DNA of 64,000 nt from Candidatus Nanoarchaeia archaeon (GCA_028716945.1 JAQUOT010000001.1:187927-251926); one strand, 5' to 3'; positions 17,189 through 64,000 are shown, counted from the stretch's first letter. The notes: generated by a model not told the origin, from the sequence alone. Translations and numbers: made by a program.

Positions 17189-17338
17189 GGAGCGGTAGCT
17201 CAGAAAGGTTTTGAAGTTTAAGACCTTGAGCAACCTGGGAGAGCATAGAAATATCTCAAACCACGCTGAAGCCGTGGATGAAAGGTTATACGTCTAGTAT
17301 ACCTTGCCAAATCGGGGGTTCAAATCCCCCTCGCTCCA
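17189..17338 (+). tRNA. tRNA-Phe (anticodon GAA) with three introns (17204..17233, 17245..17259, 17281..17311)
   Basis: The hand fold gives acceptor GGAGCGG/TCGCTCC plus A73. The D-arm is GCTC-AGCCTGGGA-GAGC after removal of a 30-nt insert. The anticodon arm is CCACG-CTGAAGC-CGTGG, the variable loop ATGTC, and the T-arm GGGGG-TTCAAAT-CCCCC. The spliced product is 74 nt. Each intron is bounded by a BHB-like motif with 3-nt bulges. An AT-rich TATA-like tttaaatatat lies about 30 nt upstream. Confidence 0.85.
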
Positions 17339-18026
17339 TTTTCTTTATATTTTTAATATTAGAACTTCTTATTAATTTAATAAAAGAGGAGGCATTATTA
17401 TAACCGCTTATTTGTATTTTATATTTTTCATACCTTTTATTAGTTCTTTTATCTATATAATTTTCATGTCCTACATAATGATCTATCTTTTGAATTTTAA
17501 TCCAATCAGATATTTTGTATATTAAATTTTTATCTTTTAGACCAAGATTAATAACTGGATAAAATTTATATTTTCCGTGATTCTTTTTTAAACACAAAGA
17601 ACCATCTGTATCAAAAATTCCTTTAATGAATGCTTTAGCATAAATTTTATTATCCCATATCCATCGAGGAACCTTATTTCTATAATTTATTTTTTTATAA
17701 CCTATAATATTAAGAAAAGATAATATCCCTTTAGATCTCTTTGTTAAGATTAAAGTATTAATCTTTTTCTTTTGATATAAATTCATCTTTACATTGAATA
17801 AAAACAAAACTTTATCTTTAATATAGTTTGAATAATTCCTCTCATCTTTGAGATTACTAAAAATAGAAAAAATATAATCATTGCTTCCTAAATTATAATA
17901 AACATGGCCATCTCCAGACAAAATACCTAAAAATTCTGACAAGTCTCTAGAAGAGGATTTAGGAAAAATAATTTTATTCTTAATATCTTGGTGACTTAGT
18001 TGAATATCTGATAAATCAAATTTCAT
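17286..18026 (-). CDS. LAGLIDADG family endonuclease (two-motif, free-standing), paralog A
   Basis: Track ORF 17286..18068. I chose the start MKFDLSD at 18026, matching paralog B. The two motifs are LGILSGDGHV and IKGIFDTDGSL. The last 53 nt are antisense to the tRNA-Phe 3' part. Confidence 0.8.
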   Translation of the reverse strand: MKFDLSDIQLSHQDIKNKIIFPKSSSRDLSEFLGILSGDGHVYYNLGSNDYIFSIFSNLKDERNYSNYIKDKVLFLFNVKMNLYQKKKINTLILTKRSKGILSFLNIIGYKKINYRNKVPRWIWDNKIYAKAFIKGIFDTDGSLCLKKNHGKYKFYPVINLGLKDKNLIYKISDWIKIQKIDHYVGHENYIDKRTNKRYEKYKIQISGYNNASSFIKLIRSSNIKNIKKMERGGFEPPIWQGILDV

Positions 18027-18048
18027 GATTAATAAAAAGCGAATTTGA

Positions 18049-18105
18049 TTTATAAATCTGGCGCGCACCCATCTGCAAGTTGCAATTTGTTAGAATATAT
18101 ATTTT
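18049..18105. repeat. Conserved 57-nt block upstream of LAGLIDADG paralog A (TATA-like box plus GC-rich and palindromic core)
   Basis: The sequence tttataaatctggcgcgcacccatctgcaagttgcaatttgttagaatatatatttt is nearly identical to 63404..63459, apart from a 2-nt indel and a local shift. It contains the palindrome tgcaaGttgca. Confidence 0.85.
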
Positions 18106-55844: not shown

Positions 55845-55939
55845 AGCCCCTTAGTGTAGTGGCCAAATTGATTAAAAATCAAGGCTAGGCATACGAGACT
55901 CTGGATCTTGTGACGGAAGTTCGAATCTTCCAGGGGCTA
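55845..55939 (+). tRNA. tRNA-Gln (anticodon CTG) with a 22-nt D-loop intron (55867..55888)
   Basis: The acceptor is AGCCCCT/AGGGGCT (an A1-U72 pair as in archaeal tRNA-Gln) plus A73. The anticodon arm is CGAGA-CTCTGGA-TCTTG and the T-arm GGAAG-TTCGAAT-CTTCC. The BHB is GGCC|AAA|TTGA...TCAA|GGCT|AGG. The spliced D-arm is GTGT-AGTGGCCAA-GCAT, giving 73 nt. A TATA-like ctttataaat lies about 25 nt upstream. Confidence 0.85.
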
Positions 55940-59902: not shown

Positions 59903-60304
59903 ATGAAAAAAGTTTTAGTTTGGGGAACCTTTGATGGATTACATAAAGGACATTTAGAATTTCTAAAAAATGCGAAGAGTTTAGGAGATAAATTATATAT
60001 TATAATTATCCCAGACAAAGCAGTAAAAGAAAACAAAGGGAAATACCCTATAAAAAATGCAGAAGAAAGAAAAAAAGAATTATTAAAATTAAAATTTGTA
60101 ACTGAAGTTTATAGCGGACTTTATGAGGAGAATTTAAAATACATTTTAAAATTAAAACCAGAGGTAGTTATCTTCGGATATGATCAAAAAACTAAATGGG
60201 AAGAAAATCTAAAGAAAACTCTTTCTTCAAAAGGAATTTTTCCAGAATATATTTATTTAGAAGAATATAATAATGGAATTCATTCTAGTGATTTAAATAA
60301 ATAA
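59903..60304 (+). CDS. Cytidylyltransferase-family nucleotidyltransferase (RibL/FAD synthetase-like)
   Basis: 133 aa. VLVWGTFDGLHKGHLEFLKNAKSLGDKLYIIIIPD contains the (T/H)xGH motif. Confidence 0.6.
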   Translation: MKKVLVWGTFDGLHKGHLEFLKNAKSLGDKLYIIIIPDKAVKENKGKYPIKNAEERKKELLKLKFVTEVYSGLYEENLKYILKLKPEVVIFGYDQKTKWEENLKKTLSSKGIFPEYIYLEEYNNGIHSSDLNK

Positions 60305-60323
60305 AAAAAAGAAAAAAATAAAT

Positions 60324-60506
60324 TTATTTACAACATTTTGATGCCCACATTAATTTATGTAGTCCCATCAAAATTATTAAAACAGCAAATAATTGTACTA
60401 TAGTTGGTTGTTTAAGCCAAGCCCAAAGACCAATTGCTATTAAAATTAGTCCACCAACTAAAATCATTGGTTTAGAATGTTTGCACATTCCCATTTCTTT
60501 TGCCAT
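60324..60506 (-). CDS. Small two-TM membrane protein ending in CCK, hypothetical
   Basis: 60-aa ORF that appears paralogous to the adjacent 56-aa ORF (shared GLW...G..KL pattern). Confidence 0.4.
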   Translation of the reverse strand: MAKEMGMCKHSKPMILVGGLILIAIGLWAWLKQPTIVQLFAVLIILMGLHKLMWASKCCK

Positions 60507-60510
60507 TTTC

Positions 60511-60681
60511 TTATTTCATTAACTTATAATTTCTTACAAGTTTACCTATACCTATTACTAAAACTACTAAAGCTACAATCCAACCTTGCAAATTAAGCAA
60601 TGAAGCAGGTATTACACCTAATTGTGCTAGAACTAGCCATAGACCAAGTATAGTTACTAACCAAGCTGTTAGTTTTGCCAT
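60511..60681 (-). CDS. Small two-TM membrane protein, hypothetical
   Basis: Hand-translated 56 aa: MAKLTAWLVTILGLWLVLAQLGVIPASLLNLQGWIVALVVLVIGIGKLVRNYKLMK. It is preceded by aaggagg on the minus strand. Confidence 0.4.
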   Translation of the reverse strand: MAKLTAWLVTILGLWLVLAQLGVIPASLLNLQGWIVALVVLVIGIGKLVRNYKLMK

Positions 60682-60786
60682 TTTTTCCTCCTTTTATTGA
60701 GTTATATGAGAGAAATGACTCCCAACCACCTAAGAATCTAAAGGACTTTAGGTTTATAAAGATTTTTATAAGGTTTTAAAAGTATA

Positions 60787-60882
60787 TGAGCCCGCGGAGA
60801 TTTGAACTCCGGGCCCCCACCAATGATTTGGTTTAAATCCAATTTATCAGAGTGGTGCGCTACCAGGCTGCGCCACGGGCTC
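60787..60882 (-). tRNA. tRNA-Ile (anticodon GAT) with a 22-nt anticodon-loop intron (60822..60843)
   Basis: Read on the minus strand, the acceptor is GAGCCCG/CGGGCTC plus A73. The D-arm is GCGC-AGCCTGGTA-GCGC, the anticodon arm CCACT-CTGATAA-GGTGG after splicing, and the T-arm CGGAG-TTCAAAT-CTCCG. The BHB is TGAT|AAA|TTGG...CCAA|ATCA|TTG. The mature product is 74 nt. Confidence 0.85.
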
Positions 60883-60961
60883 ATGAGATATATTGTTAAA
60901 AGATAATTTATAAGGTTTTTGAATTGATAAAGTTTAAATAATATTAAATTTTAACTATCCT

Positions 60962-61630
60962 ATGCAGAGGTGGCTACATAAATTAGAACATTGGGTAGAT
61001 AAATTAATACCTATCTCTTTAATTGTTTTAATTGGTTTAATCATAGGAGAATTATTCTATAAAGAACAAATACATCCTTATTTAACTTTTGTAACAATAG
61101 CAGATTGGGGTATAATAGGTTTATTTGTTATAGATTTAACTTTTAAATGGTTCAGAGTAAGAAATATTCCAAAATTCTTAAAAAAATATTGGTTAGATAT
61201 TTTAGCTATATTTCCGTTTTTTTTAGTTTTTAGAGCTTTAGAAGGAGTTGGAGAATTAATTACTGTAGTAAGCGAATACTTTACTCCTACACAAAAAGTA
61301 GTTCATGCTGGAACAGAAATAGGTAAAGAAGTTATAATAATAGAGGAAGGTACTGCTAAAATAATTAAAGAAGCTGAAGCAGCAGGAAAATTATCAAGAA
61401 CAGAAAGATTTGCAAGATTTTTAAGACCTTTAGCAAGGGCTCCAAGATTTTTACATTTAACAGATAAAGATACAAAAAAAGAATTTAAAAAAGAGATTAA
61501 ATTTATAGAAAAAGAAGAAAGAAAAGTAGTTAAAAAAGAAGAATCTTTCTTTGTAAGATTATATAAACATATAGTAAAAGTAATTGTCTTCTTTGAAAAA
61601 CCTTCTCATCATAAAAAGAGAAAGATTTAA
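60962..61630 (+). CDS. Voltage-sensor-domain-like membrane protein without a pore domain
   Basis: 222 aa. Three N-terminal TM helices include YWLDILAIFPFFLVF (S3-like). After a soluble insert of about 50 aa comes an Arg-repeat segment, RFARFLRPLARAPRFL (S4-like). I see no pore or selectivity-filter sequence. The tail is basic. Confidence 0.5.
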   Translation: MQRWLHKLEHWVDKLIPISLIVLIGLIIGELFYKEQIHPYLTFVTIADWGIIGLFVIDLTFKWFRVRNIPKFLKKYWLDILAIFPFFLVFRALEGVGELITVVSEYFTPTQKVVHAGTEIGKEVIIIEEGTAKIIKEAEAAGKLSRTERFARFLRPLARAPRFLHLTDKDTKKEFKKEIKFIEKEERKVVKKEESFFVRLYKHIVKVIVFFEKPSHHKKRKI

Positions 61631-61673
61631 AAGAAGCGGCAGTTAACAACCACCGTCAAATTTTAAATAAAAA

Positions 61674-62687
61674 ATGGAAAAAAAAGAAATACTTGCACAT
61701 TTTAGTTATGGAAGTGCTATAAGAAATGCTATAGAAAAAATAACTAATGCTAATCGTGGAGTTTTAGTTGTTTTTGTTAAAGATAAGGGTATTAAAAAAA
61801 TAAGTGTTGGTGGTTTTAAAATAAATGAAGAGTTTTCTGAAGAAAGACTTGCTGAATTAGCAAAATTAGATGGAGCAATATTGGTAGATAATAAACTACA
61901 AAAAATAATTAGTGCTAATGTCTTATTAAATCCGAGTATAAAAATTCCTAGTACAGAAACAGGTACAAGACATCAAGCAGCAGAAAGAACTGCAAGACAA
62001 TTAGATACAATGGTTCTTGCTATTTCTGCAAAAACAGGAACTGCAATGGTATATCATGGAAATGGTAAATTAAAATTAAATAATTTAGGTAAAATATTCA
62101 CAAAGACTGGAGAAGCACTAAGAATTATTGAAAAGCATAGAGAATTATTTAAAGTTTTAATAAAAAAGTTTGATACTTTTGAATTATTAGAAATGGTTAC
62201 ATTAGAAGACCTTGCTTCTATATTTCAAAGAGAAAAAATAATGGATTCTGTTGCAGATATAATCTCTGTTTATTTAAGCGAATTAGGTGATGAAGGAGAA
62301 TTAACAGAATTACAATTAAAAGAAATTATAACTTATGTTCATGCAGAATTAGCTGCAATTATGGCAGATTATCATGATTATTTTAATTTTGATAAGATAA
62401 TTGAAGAATTAAAAGACTTAAAACGTGATGAAATTGTAGTTAAAGAAAACATTTTTAAAATATTCTTAGATAATAGAAAAAAAGAAGATACATTAATACC
62501 GAAAGGTTATAGAATATTAAAGAACATCCCTATTTTAACAGAAGAAAATATAAAGTTATTAATGGAAACTTTCCCAAGTTTAAAAGAATTAATTTCTGCT
62601 CAAGAAGAAGAATTAGCTGCTATCAAATCTATAGGAAATAAAAAGGCTAAAGCTATAAGAGAATATCTATTAAAAGCACAGATTTAA
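61674..62687 (+). CDS. disA: DisA-type diadenylate cyclase (DAC domain, helical linker and C-terminal HhH)
   Basis: 337 aa. The DAC motifs are LDGAILVD and ETGTRHQAAERTARQ. The layout is collinear with bacterial DisA, and the C-terminus has IKSIGNKKAKAIREYL (HhH). Confidence 0.8.
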   Translation: MEKKEILAHFSYGSAIRNAIEKITNANRGVLVVFVKDKGIKKISVGGFKINEEFSEERLAELAKLDGAILVDNKLQKIISANVLLNPSIKIPSTETGTRHQAAERTARQLDTMVLAISAKTGTAMVYHGNGKLKLNNLGKIFTKTGEALRIIEKHRELFKVLIKKFDTFELLEMVTLEDLASIFQREKIMDSVADIISVYLSELGDEGELTELQLKEIITYVHAELAAIMADYHDYFNFDKIIEELKDLKRDEIVVKENIFKIFLDNRKKEDTLIPKGYRILKNIPILTEENIKLLMETFPSLKELISAQEEELAAIKSIGNKKAKAIREYLLKAQI

Positions 62688-63382
62688 GAATTATTTCTAA
62701 AATAATAATATTTTTTCCAATGTTTGGGGTTATTAGGAGAGATAATTTTCATCCATTTATTTAACATAAATTCTCCTCTAATTGAAACCTTATATAAATC
62801 TAACCAATTATGATTTTTATGTTTATAAGAATAGATTGTAGAACGAATTCCTAATTTGTTTATTAAATTATTTAATTGTAATCCTAAAGGTTTAGAAGTG
62901 GTGCTTATCTCTAAACGAGGATATAATTTTTTATATTTTGGTTGTAAATATAAAGTTCCATCCGTATCAAAGATTCCTTTAACCACATTAATAGTATACT
63001 CCTTTCTATTTAAGAAACAAGAAGGTATACAAATATCAAATTTTTTACCAAGAGGTAATTTAAGAATTTTATTTTTAAATTCGATTAATGAATCATCCCA
63101 AATTTGAAATCCAAATACTTTTGTAGAAGGCATTTCTTTTGGTTTTATTTTTAAATCATAAACTTTTTTATATAAATCTATAATTTTATTATTATAATGT
63201 TCTTTATCATCAAACATATGCCCCCTTAAAGAATAAAGTCCTTTAGACGTATTTCCGTTTTTGTAAAAATTCATACTTCCATCTCCAATATGCAATCCTG
63301 TTTCTTCTGCTAATTCTATTATTGGTTTTTCTGGAAGTATAAGTTTAGTGCTTTGCTTAATGTCAGATAAATCAAACTTCAT
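62684..63382 (-). CDS. LAGLIDADG family endonuclease (two-motif, free-standing), paralog B
   Basis: 232 aa. It starts MKFDLSDIKQS like paralog A. The motifs are TGLHIGDGSM and VKGIFDTDGTL. Confidence 0.8.
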   Translation of the reverse strand: MKFDLSDIKQSTKLILPEKPIIELAEETGLHIGDGSMNFYKNGNTSKGLYSLRGHMFDDKEHYNNKIIDLYKKVYDLKIKPKEMPSTKVFGFQIWDDSLIEFKNKILKLPLGKKFDICIPSCFLNRKEYTINVVKGIFDTDGTLYLQPKYKKLYPRLEISTTSKPLGLQLNNLINKLGIRSTIYSYKHKNHNWLDLYKVSIRGEFMLNKWMKIISPNNPKHWKKYYYFRNNS

Positions 63383-63403
63383 AATTAAGATAAGTAAATT
63401 TCA

Positions 63404-63459
63404 TTTATAAATCTGGCGCGCACATCTTGCAAGTTGCAATTTGTTAGAATATATATTTT
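63404..63459. repeat. Conserved 56-nt block upstream of LAGLIDADG paralog B
   Basis: tttataaatctggcgcgcacatcttgcaagttgcaatttgttagaatatatatttt is the counterpart of 18049..18105. It lies between tRNA-Asn and the endonuclease gene. Confidence 0.85.
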
Positions 63460-63488
63460 AGAGAATATATTTTAAATAAAAAGAAAAG

Positions 63489-63618
63489 CGCCTTAGGGAG
63501 GACTCGAACCTCCGACCACCTGATTAACAGTCTCACCTTTCCATATTGGAAAACAGGTGCTCTACCCTTCAGATCTTCTGAACCTAAAAGGCCAGATGGT
63601 TTGCTGAGCTACTAAGGC
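63489..63618 (-). tRNA. tRNA-Asn (anticodon GTT) with two introns (63567..63601 in the D-loop, 63532..63553 in the anticodon stem at 30/31)
   Basis: Read on the minus strand, the acceptor is GCCTTAG/CTAAGGC plus G73. After splicing the D-arm is GCTC-AGCAGGTA-GAGC and the anticodon arm CCTGA-CTGTTAA-TCAGG. The variable loop is TGGTC and the T-arm GGAGG-TTCGAGT-CCTCC, giving 73 nt. Both introns are bounded by BHB motifs (TCAG|CAA...CTGA|AGG and CACC|TGT|TTTCCA-ATA-TGGAAA|GGTG|AGA). Confidence 0.85.
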
Positions 63619-63657
63619 ATGATTTAAAAGACTTAGAATTAATTTAAAAAGGTTTCC

Positions 63658-64000
63658 TTAATCAATAAAGTCTTTATTCTTTATCTTTTCAGGCAGATAT
63701 TTATCAGAAATAAAGCTTATAATACCACTTCTTAATTTATAACTATCCGCCCATTTAGCATAAGCATTCCATCCATTAAAACTTTCTAATAGATTATCAT
63801 AAATAATTTCATTGTTTTTGTATTGAGATATTCTAAATAATATTTTTCTTATATTTCTTTTTCTTAATAATTTATGATAATAGAAATTTCTAAAACCTAC
63901 AAAGTCTATGCCTTTTGATAAAGAGATTATTTTTGATTTTTCTGAATGCAACTCTAGTTTTAGCTCTTTATTTAGGAAATTATTTATTTGTTCCTTCCAA
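63658..64000 (-). CDS. Reverse transcriptase, C-terminal part (N-terminus beyond the right window edge); compact DGR/retron-like rather than group II maturase-like
   Basis: The track ORF 63658..63951 begins at a TTG. The same frame stays open to the window edge (WKEQINNFLNKELKLELHSEKSKIISLSKGIDFVGF...). It shows the L.L..EK(T/S).I.....G..F(L/V)GF RT motif 6-7 pattern. Only about 75 aa follow the FVGF motif. Confidence 0.65.
   Translation of the reverse strand, partial: WKEQINNFLNKELKLELHSEKSKIISLSKGIDFVGFRNFYYHKLLRKRNIRKILFRISQYKNNEIIYDNLLESFNGWNAYAKWADSYKLRSGIISFISDKYLPEKIKNKDFID

What the first reader, a model, noticed from the sequence alone, without database searches (positions are those of the whole stretch)
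63489..63618. tRNA-Asn(GUU) with two non-canonical introns, one in the D-loop and one inside the anticodon stem at 30/31
All coordinates here refer to the minus strand.

- **Intron a (63567..63601, 35 nt):** it splits the D-loop after position 17. The central helix is UCAG with CUGA, and the bulges are CAA and AGG.
- **Intron b (63532..63553, 22 nt):** it splits the 5' strand of the anticodon stem between 30 and 31. It has an almost ideal BHB. The central helix is CACC with GGUG. The bulges are UGU and AGA. A 6-bp inner helix, UUUCCA with UGGAAA, closes an AUA loop.

Splicing yields a canonical 73-nt tRNA-Asn: D-loop AGCAGGUA, anticodon arm CCUGA-CUGUUAA-UCAGG and G73. The gene is sandwiched between a LAGLIDADG gene and a reverse transcriptase gene.
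Basis: partly seen in the sequence, partly recalled or inferred. Interest (0 to 1): 0.65.

Follow-up and report, generated by a model that had tools for sequence, protein, structure and literature searches.

The report
Twice-interrupted archaeal tRNA-Asn gene
This is a real asparagine tRNA gene of a tiny DPANN archaeon, broken by two short protein-spliced introns at unusual positions; such genes are a known archaeal oddity, standard tRNA finders miss this one, and it is one of four interrupted tRNA genes in the window.

Summary
On the minus strand, 63618..63489 holds three exons of 17, 13 and 43 nt. Joined, they give a 73-nt cloverleaf tRNA-Asn(GTT) with G73.

- **Splice sites:** both junctions lie after the second base of 3-nt bulges flanking a 4-bp helix, the archaeal bulge-helix-bulge (BHB) rule.
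- **Intron b (30/31, 22 nt):** a near-strict BHB, within 0.7 kcal/mol of the folding optimum. An intron at this position occurs in three related tRNA-Asn genes and two tRNA-Ile genes, with compensatory changes in the helix.
- **Intron a (17/18, 35 nt):** a relaxed hBH motif, about 8 kcal/mol above the optimum, with no intron at this position in the relatives examined. Its removal restores a 25-nt 5' end identical to uninterrupted tRNA-Asn genes elsewhere.
- **Host:** a 27% GC "Candidatus Nanoarchaeia" (Pacearchaeota-like) archaeon. Four of the five tRNA genes in the window are interrupted, by seven introns.
- **Neighbours:** the reverse transcriptase belongs to a diversity-generating retroelement and is incidental. 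The LAGLIDADG gene follows tRNA-Asn in all six lineages examined.

Verdict: a new member of a known kind, of modest interest. The side leads are the conserved LAGLIDADG gene and a group I intron in one relative's tRNA-Asn.

The parts
63489..63618 (-). Complete interrupted tRNA-Asn(GTT) gene, giving a 130-nt precursor body
   Evidence: Acceptor 7/7 bp and T arm 5/5 bp were found independently by my T-arm/acceptor scan.
63602..63618 (-). Exon 1, tRNA positions 1-17 (acceptor 5' strand, U8, A9, D-stem 5' strand, A14-A17)
   Evidence: Joined to exon 2 it is identical over 25/25 nt to uninterrupted tRNA-Asn genes L003, L004, L007, L009 and L010.
63567..63601 (-). Intron a, 35 nt, at position 17/18 in the D-loop. 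It is a relaxed hBH-type bulge-helix-bulge motif.
   Evidence: Helix TCAG:CTGA, bulges CA|A and AG|G, outer pairs C11-G54 and G10-U55, only 1 contiguous inner bp. The BHB conformer lies about 8 kcal/mol above the MFE.
63554..63566 (-). Exon 2, tRNA positions 18-30 (G18 G19 U20 A21, D-stem 3' strand, A26, C27-G30)
63532..63553 (-). Intron b, 22 nt, at position 30/31 in the anticodon stem. It is a near-strict hBHBh' motif.
   Evidence: Helix CACC:GGTG, bulges TG|T and AG|A, 6 inner bp, 2 outer bp. It forms within 0.7 kcal/mol of the MFE. An intron at the same position, with a covarying helix, occurs in relatives.
63489..63531 (-). Exon 3, tRNA positions 31-73 (A31, anticodon loop CTGTTAA, stem 3' strand, variable loop TGGTC, T arm, acceptor 3' strand, G73). 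No encoded CCA.
63642..63657 (-). Archaeal BRE/TATA-like promoter element GGAAACCTTTTTAAAT. The TATA part lies about 25-32 nt upstream of tRNA position 1.
   Evidence: The same element, gaaaSSttttTAAA, sits at the same distance upstream of the tRNA-Asn genes in L025, L026, L029 and L031, but not L030. Function is inferred.
63474..63488 (-). T-rich tract CTTTTCTTTTTATTT immediately after G73, the likely transcription terminator
   Evidence: T-tracts follow the related genes too. Function is inferred.
62684..63382 (-). Free-standing two-motif LAGLIDADG endonuclease gene, 106 nt downstream of the tRNA. It is a conserved neighbour, not part of the tRNA.
   Evidence: Pfam LAGLIDADG_3 E 2.6e-9. The search found 537 homologs; the 120 listed are 50-62% identical and mostly 216-238 aa. 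A profile of 34 of them matches intein and intron homing endonucleases in the PDB, and both GDG/DxDG motifs are invariant. The gene lies downstream of tRNA-Asn in 6/6 lineages.
63658..64000 (-). 3' part of a reverse transcriptase ORF, cut by the window end. It is a DGR-type RT and an incidental neighbour.
   Evidence: Homologous RTs in L019, L021 and L023 sit next to TR/VR repeat pairs with adenine-specific mismatches and have no adjacent tRNA.

Best explanation
The locus is the functional tRNA-Asn(GUU) gene of a DPANN archaeon ('Candidatus Nanoarchaeia', Pacearchaeota-like).

**Proposed pathway.**
1. The gene is transcribed from its own BRE/TATA promoter as a precursor of about 130 nt, ending at the T-tract.
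2. The archaeal tRNA-splicing endonuclease (EndA) recognises a bulge-helix-bulge motif at each exon-intron boundary. It cuts after the second base of each 3-nt bulge.
3. An RtcB-type ligase joins the three exons into a 73-nt tRNA, and CCA is added afterwards.

**The two introns.**
- Intron b (30/31) presents a near-ideal BHB in the ground-state fold, so it is probably removed readily.
- Intron a (17/18) presents only a relaxed hBH motif. Its 3' bulge is well formed and its 5' site lies in a loop-like region. It must compete with an alternative 12-bp hairpin, so it needs an EndA with broad substrate specificity.

**What is shown and what is inferred.**
- Shown: the exon and intron boundaries, the cloverleaf product, the BHB geometry, conservation and covariation of the 30/31 intron, a conserved promoter element in four of the five related loci, and the archaeal host.
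- Inferred: transcription, the cleaving enzyme and its type, ligation, and the order of intron removal.
For: **Product.**
- The spliced product is a 73-nt tRNA-Asn.
- It carries T8, A14, G18G19, A21, T33, A37, C48, G53-T54-T55-C56, A58 and C61, read from the sequence.
- It is 58-60/73 identical to the other tRNA-Asn genes (52/73 for L029).

**Splice sites.**
- Both splice sites obey the same bulge rule.
- All four canonical 37/38 introns of related tRNA-Asn genes (L025, L026, L030, L031) obey it too, which serves as an internal control.
- Shuffling gives p of about 0.017 for intron a and 0.00017 for intron b.

**Comparison with relatives.**
- An intron at 30/31 is present in L026, L030 and L031 tRNA-Asn and in L025 and L029 tRNA-Ile.
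- Across these, 97.2% of cells are paired and 2 pairs have compensatory changes.
- Only 3/500 shuffles reach the observed covariation score.
- Removing intron a recreates the exact 25-nt 5' end of uninterrupted tRNA-Asn genes.

**Expression signals.** A conserved BRE/TATA element lies at about -37..-24 in the window and four of five related loci, and T-tracts follow the genes.

**Genome context.**
- The same window holds three more interrupted tRNA genes with the same BHB grammar:
  - Phe(GAA) with introns at 15/16, 25/26 and 46/47.
  - Gln(CTG) with one at 21/22.
  - Ile(GAT) with one in the anticodon loop.
- The host is archaeal: aRF1, class I LysRS, Cbf5 and archaeal ribosomal proteins, and the NCBI name 'Candidatus Nanoarchaeia archaeon'.

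**Literature.**
- Position 30/31 and D-arm introns are known (PMC4090602; PMC12397907).
- A D-loop HBh' intron in M. kandleri tRNA-Glu is cleaved by its EndA in vitro, inefficiently, and mature tRNA-Glu is seen by RNA-Seq (PMC5829648).
- An hBH intron is cleaved by ARMAN-2 EndA in vitro (PMC3239211).
Against: - There is no expression or junction data.
- No EndA or RtcB gene lies in the window, and the rest of the genome could not be read. A second, uninterrupted tRNA-Asn elsewhere is therefore not excluded.
- Intron a is weak:
  - Its BHB conformer is about 8 kcal/mol less stable than the MFE, in which the 3' splice site is buried in a 12-bp hairpin.
  - Its inner helix is not contiguous.
  - No relative examined has an intron at 17/18; they have 15/16 or none.
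- The covariation sample is small (6 sequences).
- My BHB scanner is home-made, and tRNAscan-SE was not available.
Confidence: 0.85

Rival explanations
1. The locus is a decaying tRNA-Asn pseudogene that has picked up two insertions. A second, uninterrupted gene elsewhere in the genome supplies tRNA-Asn.
For: The rest of the genome could not be searched. Standard detectors do not call the gene. Intron a has a poor BHB.
Against: - All 21 stem pairs and the universal tRNA bases are intact.
- Exon GC is 56% in a 27% GC genome.
- A promoter element and T-tract are present, as in related loci.
- Both insertions sit exactly in BHB register.
- Five related lineages keep similarly interrupted tRNA-Asn genes at the same locus, each splicing to a perfect 73-mer (and L029).
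- Three other tRNA genes in the window are interrupted in the same way.
Confidence: 0.04
2. Only intron b is a genuine EndA-spliced intron. The 35-nt D-loop insert is processed differently, at other boundaries or by another activity, or it is spliced so poorly that the gene is crippled.
For: - The BHB conformer for intron a is about 8 kcal/mol above the MFE, and its 3' splice site lies inside a 12-bp hairpin in the MFE.
- Only 1 contiguous inner bp follows the helix.
- No intron at this position was found in relatives; they have 15/16 introns with helix GCTC:GAGC.
Against: - The pair 17|52 is the only one in the D-loop region with a 4-bp helix that also gives a D-loop of normal length.
- The product's D-arm equals that of uninterrupted tRNA-Asn genes and of the spliced L025 gene.
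- Relaxed hBH/BHL introns are cleaved in vitro by ARMAN-2 EndA (PMC3239211).
- In-silico folding ignores the protein and the tRNA tertiary structure.
Confidence: 0.08
3. The match is a chance resemblance. An AT-rich intergenic region happens to contain tRNA-like pieces.
For: None beyond the failure of the standard detectors.
Against: - The joint shuffle probability of the two BHB registers is about 3e-6.
- The cloverleaf is perfect.
- The spliced product is 58-60/73 identical to the other tRNA-Asn genes, 52/73 for L029.
- The locus keeps its neighbours, with the LAGLIDADG gene downstream and MetRS nearby.
Confidence: 0.01

Closest known systems
Multiple-intron tRNA genes of Thermoproteales (Crenarchaeota), e.g. 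Pyrobaculum calidifontis with 71 introns in 46 tRNA genes (PMC8450103; Sugahara et al. 2008 as cited in PMC4033280)
   Same: They carry up to three short BHB introns per tRNA gene at non-canonical positions, including 30/31, 25/26 and D-arm sites. Splicing is by EndA. The intron load per gene is comparable: 7 introns in 5 genes in this window.
   Different: - The host here is a mesophile-like, 27% GC DPANN archaeon rather than a hyperthermophilic crenarchaeon.
- The EndA is expected to be of another type. DPANN lineages have alpha4 with the L3 loop, (alpha-beta)2 or epsilon2 enzymes rather than the (alpha-beta)2 type with the crenarchaeal loop.
- I found no evidence here of near-identical introns spread across different tRNAs.
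Disrupted tRNA genes of ARMAN-2 ('Candidatus Micrarchaeum acidiphilum') with the epsilon2 EndA (PMC3239211, PMC12397907)
   Same: It is also a DPANN archaeon, and 56% of its tRNA genes are disrupted. [quoted passage not shown] In vitro cleavage of an hBH intron is the precedent for intron a.
   Different: The lineage differs (Micrarchaeota against Nanoarchaeia/Pacearchaeota). The positions described there are in the T-loop (53/54, 59/60). The EndA type of the present organism is unknown.
Methanopyrus kandleri pre-tRNA-Glu(UUC) with a non-canonical HBh' intron in the D-loop plus a further intron (PMC5829648)
   Same: It combines a D-loop BHB-type intron with a second intron in the same tRNA. 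Its EndA cleaves it in vitro, inefficiently, and mature tRNA-Glu is seen by RNA-Seq.
   Different: The motif there is HBh', whereas intron a here is hBH. The host is a euryarchaeon, and the tRNA is a different isoacceptor.
Split tRNA-Lys(CUU) at position 30/31 in Nanoarchaeum equitans and Staphylothermus (PMC4090602)
   Same: The break point is the same (30/31), it is recognised through a BHB formed with the 5' strand of the anticodon stem, and it is processed by EndA.
   Different: Those are trans-spliced halves encoded at separate loci. Here the pieces are contiguous and joined in cis.

Membership tests
Archaeal BHB (EndA-spliced) tRNA intron | A 4-bp central helix flanked by two 3-nt bulges on opposite strands, with both splice sites after the second bulge base (3-4-3 hBHBh'), or an accepted relaxed form (HBh' or hBH) | tested here: met
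   - Intron b: 3-4-3 geometry with 2 outer and 6 inner bp.
- Intron a: 4-bp helix, proper 3' bulge and 2 outer bp, but a loop-like 5' side, which is the hBH form.
- The cleavage rule was checked against four canonical 37/38 introns of related genes.
Archaeal BHB (EndA-spliced) tRNA intron | Excision and ligation restore a canonical cloverleaf tRNA | tested here: met
   ARAGORN calls a 73-nt tRNA-Asn(gtt) only after both introns are removed. Removing one alone gives wrong or shifted calls.
Archaeal BHB (EndA-spliced) tRNA intron | The motif is maintained by selection, seen as covariation or conservation among relatives | tested here: inconclusive
   - Intron b: met. An intron is present at 30/31 in 5 related genes, with 2 compensatory pairs and 97% of cells paired.
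- Intron a: no intron at this position was found, so this is untested.
Archaeal BHB (EndA-spliced) tRNA intron | The host encodes a tRNA-splicing endonuclease, with broad specificity for relaxed motifs, and an RtcB ligase | not testable with these tools
   The host is archaeal. No EndA or RtcB gene is among the window ORFs scanned, and the remainder of the genome was not retrievable.
Archaeal BHB (EndA-spliced) tRNA intron | The spliced RNA is observed | not testable with these tools
   No transcript data are available.
tRNA-Asn(GUU) | Anticodon GUU in a 7-nt loop with U33 and a purine at 37, discriminator G73, and the universal tRNA bases | tested here: met
   The product is 58-60/73 identical to the other tRNA-Asn genes (52/73 for L029).
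Group I or group II self-splicing intron | A catalytic RNA core: P3-P9 for group I, domains I-VI for group II | tested here: not met
   The inserts are 35 and 22 nt. No Rfam intron family hits 60000-64000 even at E up to 10. By contrast, the L029 tRNA-Asn gene does hit RF00028 at 84.8 bits.
Split or permuted tRNA gene | tRNA pieces encoded at separate loci or in permuted order | tested here: not met
   All three exons are collinear within 130 nt.

The most novel reading that the evidence does not exclude
**The reading.** The LAGLIDADG gene that follows tRNA-Asn in all six lineages examined may be an active free-standing homing endonuclease. Its target would be the uninterrupted anticodon-arm region of tRNA-Asn, or of the similar tRNA-Ile that follows it in several relatives. 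The introns clustered there would then act as its partners by interrupting the target site ('collaborative homing' or immunity).

**Where the introns sit.**
- BHB introns at 30/31 and 37/38 occur in this window and its relatives.
- A group I ribozyme at about 35/36 occurs in L029, the site reported for Patescibacteria tRNA-Asn.

**Why it would matter.** One shared locus would show a group I intron, BHB introns and a homing endonuclease side by side. That would make the old proposal that archaeal BHB introns descend from endonuclease-associated group I introns directly testable.

**Facts behind it.**
- The adjacency holds in 6/6 lineages.
- Both catalytic motifs are invariant in 34 homologs.
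- tRNA-Asn and tRNA-Ile lie 15 nt apart, uninterrupted, in genomes without the gene.
- L029 carries the group I intron.
- Archaeal group I introns were previously found only in rRNA genes (PMC6125680).

**Caveats.** The correlation is confounded by phylogeny, because the whole clade is intron-rich. No target site was tested.
Probability: 0.12. Interest if true: 0.7.

Novelty: new member of a known kind. Interest (0 to 1): 0.33.

Why it matters
**Annotation.**
- ARAGORN and Rfam missed two of the five tRNA genes in this window outright (Asn and Gln). ARAGORN also missed the three-intron Phe gene, which Rfam only just detected.
- The BHB models of tRNAscan-SE 2.0 were trained on Crenarchaeota, Euryarchaeota and Thaumarchaeota.
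- 'Missing' tRNAs in DPANN genome bins, which feed into completeness estimates and claims of host dependence, may therefore often be heavily interrupted genes rather than real losses. PMC5829648 already suspected this.

**Biology.**
- The locus adds a Pacearchaeota-like lineage whose intron load per tRNA gene in this window (7 introns in 5 genes) is in the range reported for Thermoproteales.
- It documents intron turnover at one tRNA-Asn locus shared by these lineages. Positions 15/16, 17/18, 30/31 and 37/38, and a group I intron at 35/36, come and go between them.
- It predicts a broad-specificity EndA in this organism.

Tried and rejected
1. **Collection scans for related genes.** I scanned genome contigs and metagenome contigs with a degenerate exon-3 pattern. 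The hits served as a control for the exon 1 / exon 2 junction but gave no intron-bearing relatives.

2. **Relatives through the DisA neighbour.** The gene order around DisA is not conserved at about 60% identity, and no tRNA turned up there.

3. **Reading past the window end.** Only short Logan contigs were returned. They break 56 nt downstream of the tRNA. The 536-kb NCBI contig was never served.

4. **Group II intron hypothesis for the reverse transcriptase.** I rejected it for three reasons:
   - Only 39 nt separate the RT stop codon from the tRNA.
   - Homologous RTs in three loci sit beside TR/VR repeat pairs typical of diversity-generating retroelements.
   - No tRNA lies next to those RTs.

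5. **A C/D-box guide or other Rfam family inside the introns.** Nothing was found.

6. **EndA or RtcB in the window.** Neither was among the ORFs scanned.

7. **Alternative registers for intron a.** I looked for a 15/16-type intron as in relatives, and for other splice pairs. No other pair gives a 4-bp helix with a viable D-loop.

8. **LAGLIDADG relatives in viral contigs.** Only distant hits at 23-32% identity came back, so no further related loci were gained.

9. **A published list containing position 17/18.** The search tools cannot handle '/', and Marck & Grosjean 2003 is not held. Whether 17/18 has been reported before remains open.

Full report
**1. The observation**

On the minus strand, 63618..63489 reads as follows:
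- Exon 1: GCCTTAGTAGCTCAGCA
- Intron a: AACCATCTGGCCTTTTAGGTTCAGAAGATCTGAAG
- Exon 2: GGTAGAGCACCTG
- Intron b: TTTTCCAATATGGAAAGGTGAG
- Exon 3: ACTGTTAATCAGGTGGTCGGAGGTTCGAGTCCTCCCTAAGGCG

The three outer pieces joined are 73 nt. ARAGORN calls them tRNA-Asn(gtt) with fully paired stems of 7, 4, 5 and 5 bp, D-loop AGCAGGTA and discriminator G73. Removing only one insert gives a wrong or shifted call.

On the raw window, ARAGORN finds only tRNA-Glu and tRNA-Ile. Rfam at gathering score finds those two plus a 150-nt tRNA at 17189. At this locus Rfam gives only a partial 20.3-bit tRNA hit. The gene is real but invisible to standard tools.

**2. Are the inserts BHB introns?**

I used the established geometry. 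Two 3-nt bulges on opposite strands are separated by 4 bp, and cleavage falls after the second bulge base. This is the arrangement implied by the eukaryotic anticodon-intron pair between position 32 and intron base -3. The '3-4-3 nt hBHBh'' motif is described in PMC3239211.

The rule was validated inside this clade. All four canonical 37/38 introns in related tRNA-Asn genes fit it exactly: helix CTGT:GCAG or GCGG, bulges TA|N and NN|A.

| | Central helix | Bulges | Outer bp | Inner bp |
|---|---|---|---|---|
| Intron b | CACC:GGTG | TG\|T, AG\|A | 2 | 6, closing ATA |
| Intron a | TCAG:CTGA | CA\|A, AG\|G | 2 (C11-G54, G10-U55) | 1, then mismatches |

Intron b's motif forms within 0.7 kcal/mol of the minimum-energy fold of the whole precursor.

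Intron a is weaker.
- Its 5' site lies in a loop-like region, which is the relaxed hBH (BHL) form.
- The BHB conformer is about 8 kcal/mol above the MFE.
- In the MFE, a 12-bp hairpin buries the 3' site.

Shuffling each intron 200,000 times gave the required helix in 1.7% of cases for intron a. For intron b it appeared in 0.49% of cases, and in 0.017% together with at least 4 inner bp.

**3. Comparative evidence**

The exon-3 pattern scans found only uninterrupted tRNA-Asn genes in other archaea. Five of these begin GCCTTAGTAGCTCAGCAGGTAGAGC. That is exactly exon 1 plus the start of exon 2, which fixes the boundaries of intron a.

Related interrupted genes came from an unexpected route. The LAGLIDADG protein has 537 homologs. 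The 120 listed are 50-62% identical and mostly 216-238 aa long, and the named ones come mostly from DPANN archaea. In every lineage I could fetch (L025, L026-28, L029, L030, L031-33), the gene lies 70-150 nt downstream of a tRNA-Asn(GTT) gene. MetRS and a tRNA-binding gene lie nearby in L025, L026 and L029, as in the window.

All the BHB-interrupted tRNA-Asn genes splice to perfect 73-mers:

| Locus | Introns in tRNA-Asn |
|---|---|
| Window | 17/18, 30/31 |
| L025 | 15/16, 37/38 |
| L026 | 15/16, 30/31, 37/38 |
| L030 | 15/16, 30/31, 37/38 |
| L031 | 30/31, 37/38 |
| L029 | one ~190-nt insert at ~35/36 |

The 30/31 helix covaries with the exon: CACC:GGTG, CACA:TGTG, CACG:CGTG, CGCA:AGCG. tRNA-Ile genes in L025 and L029 carry a 30/31 intron as well. 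In a formal count on six sequences, 97.2% of cells pair and 2 pairs have compensatory changes. Only 3/500 shuffles reach the observed score, and slid registers collapse to 11-36% paired.

Intron b is therefore an old, selected BHB intron. No intron at the position of intron a was found in these relatives. It is either a recent gain or a 2-nt-shifted descendant of the 15/16 intron; this is inference.

**4. Expression signals**

A BRE/TATA-like element, gaaaSSttttTAAA, lies at about -37..-24 upstream of the window gene and of the L025, L026, L029 and L031 genes. L030 lacks an obvious match. A T-tract follows G73. Transcription itself is inferred.

**5. Host and genome-wide pattern**

The DisA and LAGLIDADG proteins are identical to proteins that NCBI names as from a 'Candidatus Nanoarchaeia archaeon' bin. 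The nearest relatives are Pacearchaeota and Nanoarchaeota. The window encodes aRF1, class I LysRS, Cbf5 and archaeal ribosomal proteins.

My T-arm/acceptor scan combined with BHB-guided splicing found five tRNA genes in the window:
- **Phe(GAA), 17189-17338:** three introns at 15/16, 25/26 and 46/47.
- **Gln(CTG), 55845-55939:** one 22-nt intron at 21/22, missed by both ARAGORN and Rfam.
- **Glu(CTC):** uninterrupted.
- **Ile(GAT):** one anticodon-loop intron.
- **Asn(GTT):** two introns.

That is seven introns in five genes. For comparison, tRNAscan-SE 2.0 reports 0.84 introns per tRNA gene on average in Thermoproteales and 71 introns in 46 genes in Pyrobaculum calidifontis (PMC8450103).

**6. 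Comparison with what is known**

- Position 30/31 is among the non-canonical positions listed by Yoshihisa 2014.
- D-arm introns are stated to occur (PMC12397907).
- M. kandleri tRNA-Glu has a D-loop HBh' intron that its EndA cleaves in vitro, inefficiently, and mature tRNA-Glu is seen by RNA-Seq.
- ARMAN-2 EndA cuts an hBH intron in vitro.
- Kaneta et al. 2018 surveyed DPANN genomes, including one Pacearchaeota and one Woesearchaeota. They reported increased tRNA disruption in multiple DPANN lineages with L3-loop alpha4 EndAs. They also suspected undetected interrupted genes.

The finding is therefore a new member of a known kind. I could not establish whether 17/18 specifically has been reported before.

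**7. The neighbours**

*Reverse transcriptase.* The upstream ORF matches only the C-terminal part of reverse transcriptases. The listed homologs are mostly 140-190 aa ORFs found across DPANN. In the three loci examined, an N-terminal RT ORF precedes them. They also sit beside repeat pairs whose mismatches are adenine-specific. This is the signature of a diversity-generating retroelement. None has an adjacent tRNA, so the RT is an incidental neighbour.

*LAGLIDADG gene.* This is a conserved neighbour.
- Both catalytic motifs are invariant in 34 homologs.
- The profile matches intein and archaeal-intron homing endonucleases in the PDB.
- In LAGLIDADG-less archaea (L005, L006), tRNA-Asn and tRNA-Ile are 15 nt apart and uninterrupted.
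- In this clade the endonuclease gene sits after tRNA-Asn, and between tRNA-Asn and tRNA-Ile in L025, L026, L029 and L031. Both tRNAs carry anticodon-arm introns.

*Group I intron in a relative.* In L029 the tRNA-Asn insert is a group I intron (RF00028, 84.8 bits, E 2e-22).
- It sits at about 35/36, with U before the 5' site and G at the intron's end.
- This is the site recently described for Patescibacteria tRNA-Asn (PMC13011429).
- The 2018 survey found archaeal group I introns only in rRNA genes (PMC6125680).

These are leads, not conclusions. The association is confounded by phylogeny.

**8. Verdict**

- Confidence that both inserts are EndA-spliced introns of a functional tRNA-Asn gene is about 0.85.
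- It is about 0.95 for intron b alone, and lower for intron a.

Novelty is a new member of a known kind, and interest is modest at 0.33. The finding's practical value is for tRNA annotation in DPANN bins. Its speculative value lies in the conserved homing-endonuclease neighbour and the mixture of group I and BHB introns at one shared locus.

Noticed in passing
window 17189-17338 (+): A tRNA-Phe(GAA) gene of 150 nt with three BHB introns, splicing to a 74-nt tRNA. The introns are at 15/16 (30 nt, helix GCTC:GAGC, 10 inner bp), 25/26 (15 nt, helix GAGA:TCTC) and 46/47 (31 nt, helix TGGA:GCCA with one mismatch). Rfam scores it at only 31.6 bits and ARAGORN misses it. The listed ORF 17286..18068 (-) overlaps its 3' end.
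   Followed up: yes
window 55845-55939 (+): A tRNA-Gln(CTG) gene of 95 nt lying 1 nt upstream of tRNA-Glu. It has one 22-nt HBh' intron at 21/22 (helix GGCC:GGCT, 6 inner bp). Both ARAGORN and Rfam (gathering score) miss it.
   Followed up: yes
window 60787-60882 (-): The 22-nt intron of tRNA-Ile(GAT) does not fit a strict BHB at 37/38. The best register is 38/39 (helix TGAT:ATCA, bulges AA|A and TT|G, 4 inner bp, weak outer helix). Related tRNA-Ile genes (L025, L029, L031) instead carry two introns, at 30/31 or 27/28 plus 37/38.
   Followed up: partly
window 62684-63382 (-); L025 431-1132; L026 3001-3699; L029 3001-3714; L030 662-1333; L031 1501-2202: A free-standing LAGLIDADG endonuclease gene. 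The 120 listed homologs are 50-62% identical and mostly 216-238 aa, and both catalytic motifs are invariant in 34 of them. It lies directly downstream of tRNA-Asn in 6/6 lineages and is followed by tRNA-Ile in L025, L026, L029 and L031. In LAGLIDADG-less archaea (L005, L006), tRNA-Asn and tRNA-Ile are 15 nt apart and uninterrupted.
   Followed up: partly
L029 2667-2931 (group I hit 2692-2887): The tRNA-Asn gene at the corresponding locus of another 'Candidatus Nanoarchaeia' bin (GCA_028714095.1) carries a ~190-nt group I intron (RF00028, 84.8 bits, E 2e-22) at about 35/36. This is the site reported for Patescibacteria tRNA-Asn. The 2018 survey of archaeal group I introns found them only in rRNA genes, so this may be a first for an archaeal tRNA gene and hints at exchange between CPR bacteria and DPANN archaea.
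   Followed up: partly
window 63658-64000 (-); L019 3430-4492; L021 3420-4471; L023 3330-4465: The reverse transcriptase belongs to a DPANN-wide, well-conserved (60-72% identity) DGR-type family. In the three loci examined it is annotated as two adjacent or overlapping ORFs (184-229 aa, then 154-163 aa), which suggests a split gene or a frameshift. TR/VR repeat pairs with adenine-specific differences lie just upstream (for example L021 3010-3094 and 3302-3386). The window's own TR and target gene would lie beyond 64000.
   Followed up: partly
window 63658-63720 (-): The last ~20-25 residues of the RT ORF weakly resemble the C-terminus of topoisomerase VI subunit A (NCBIfam E 0.0025; PDB 2zbk E 0.017). 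Topo VI A is the gene upstream of tRNA-Asn in L029 and lies further upstream in L026. The DGR cassette may therefore have inserted at or into the 3' end of top6A.
   Followed up: no
window ~63433; L001, L002, L013, L014: Two independent Logan assemblies (SRR22315509, SRR22315508) both break 56 nt downstream of the tRNA-Asn gene. This could reflect strain variation or a repeat at the tRNA/RT side, or only k-mer assembly behaviour in AT-rich sequence.
   Followed up: no
window 61674-62687 (+): A DisA-type diadenylate cyclase (DAC, DisA-linker and HhH domains) in an archaeon. It is conserved among Pacearchaeota and Nanoarchaeota bins at 50-62% identity, but without conserved gene order. In the window it sits, with a 222-aa membrane protein, between the LAGLIDADG gene and tRNA-Ile.
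   Followed up: no
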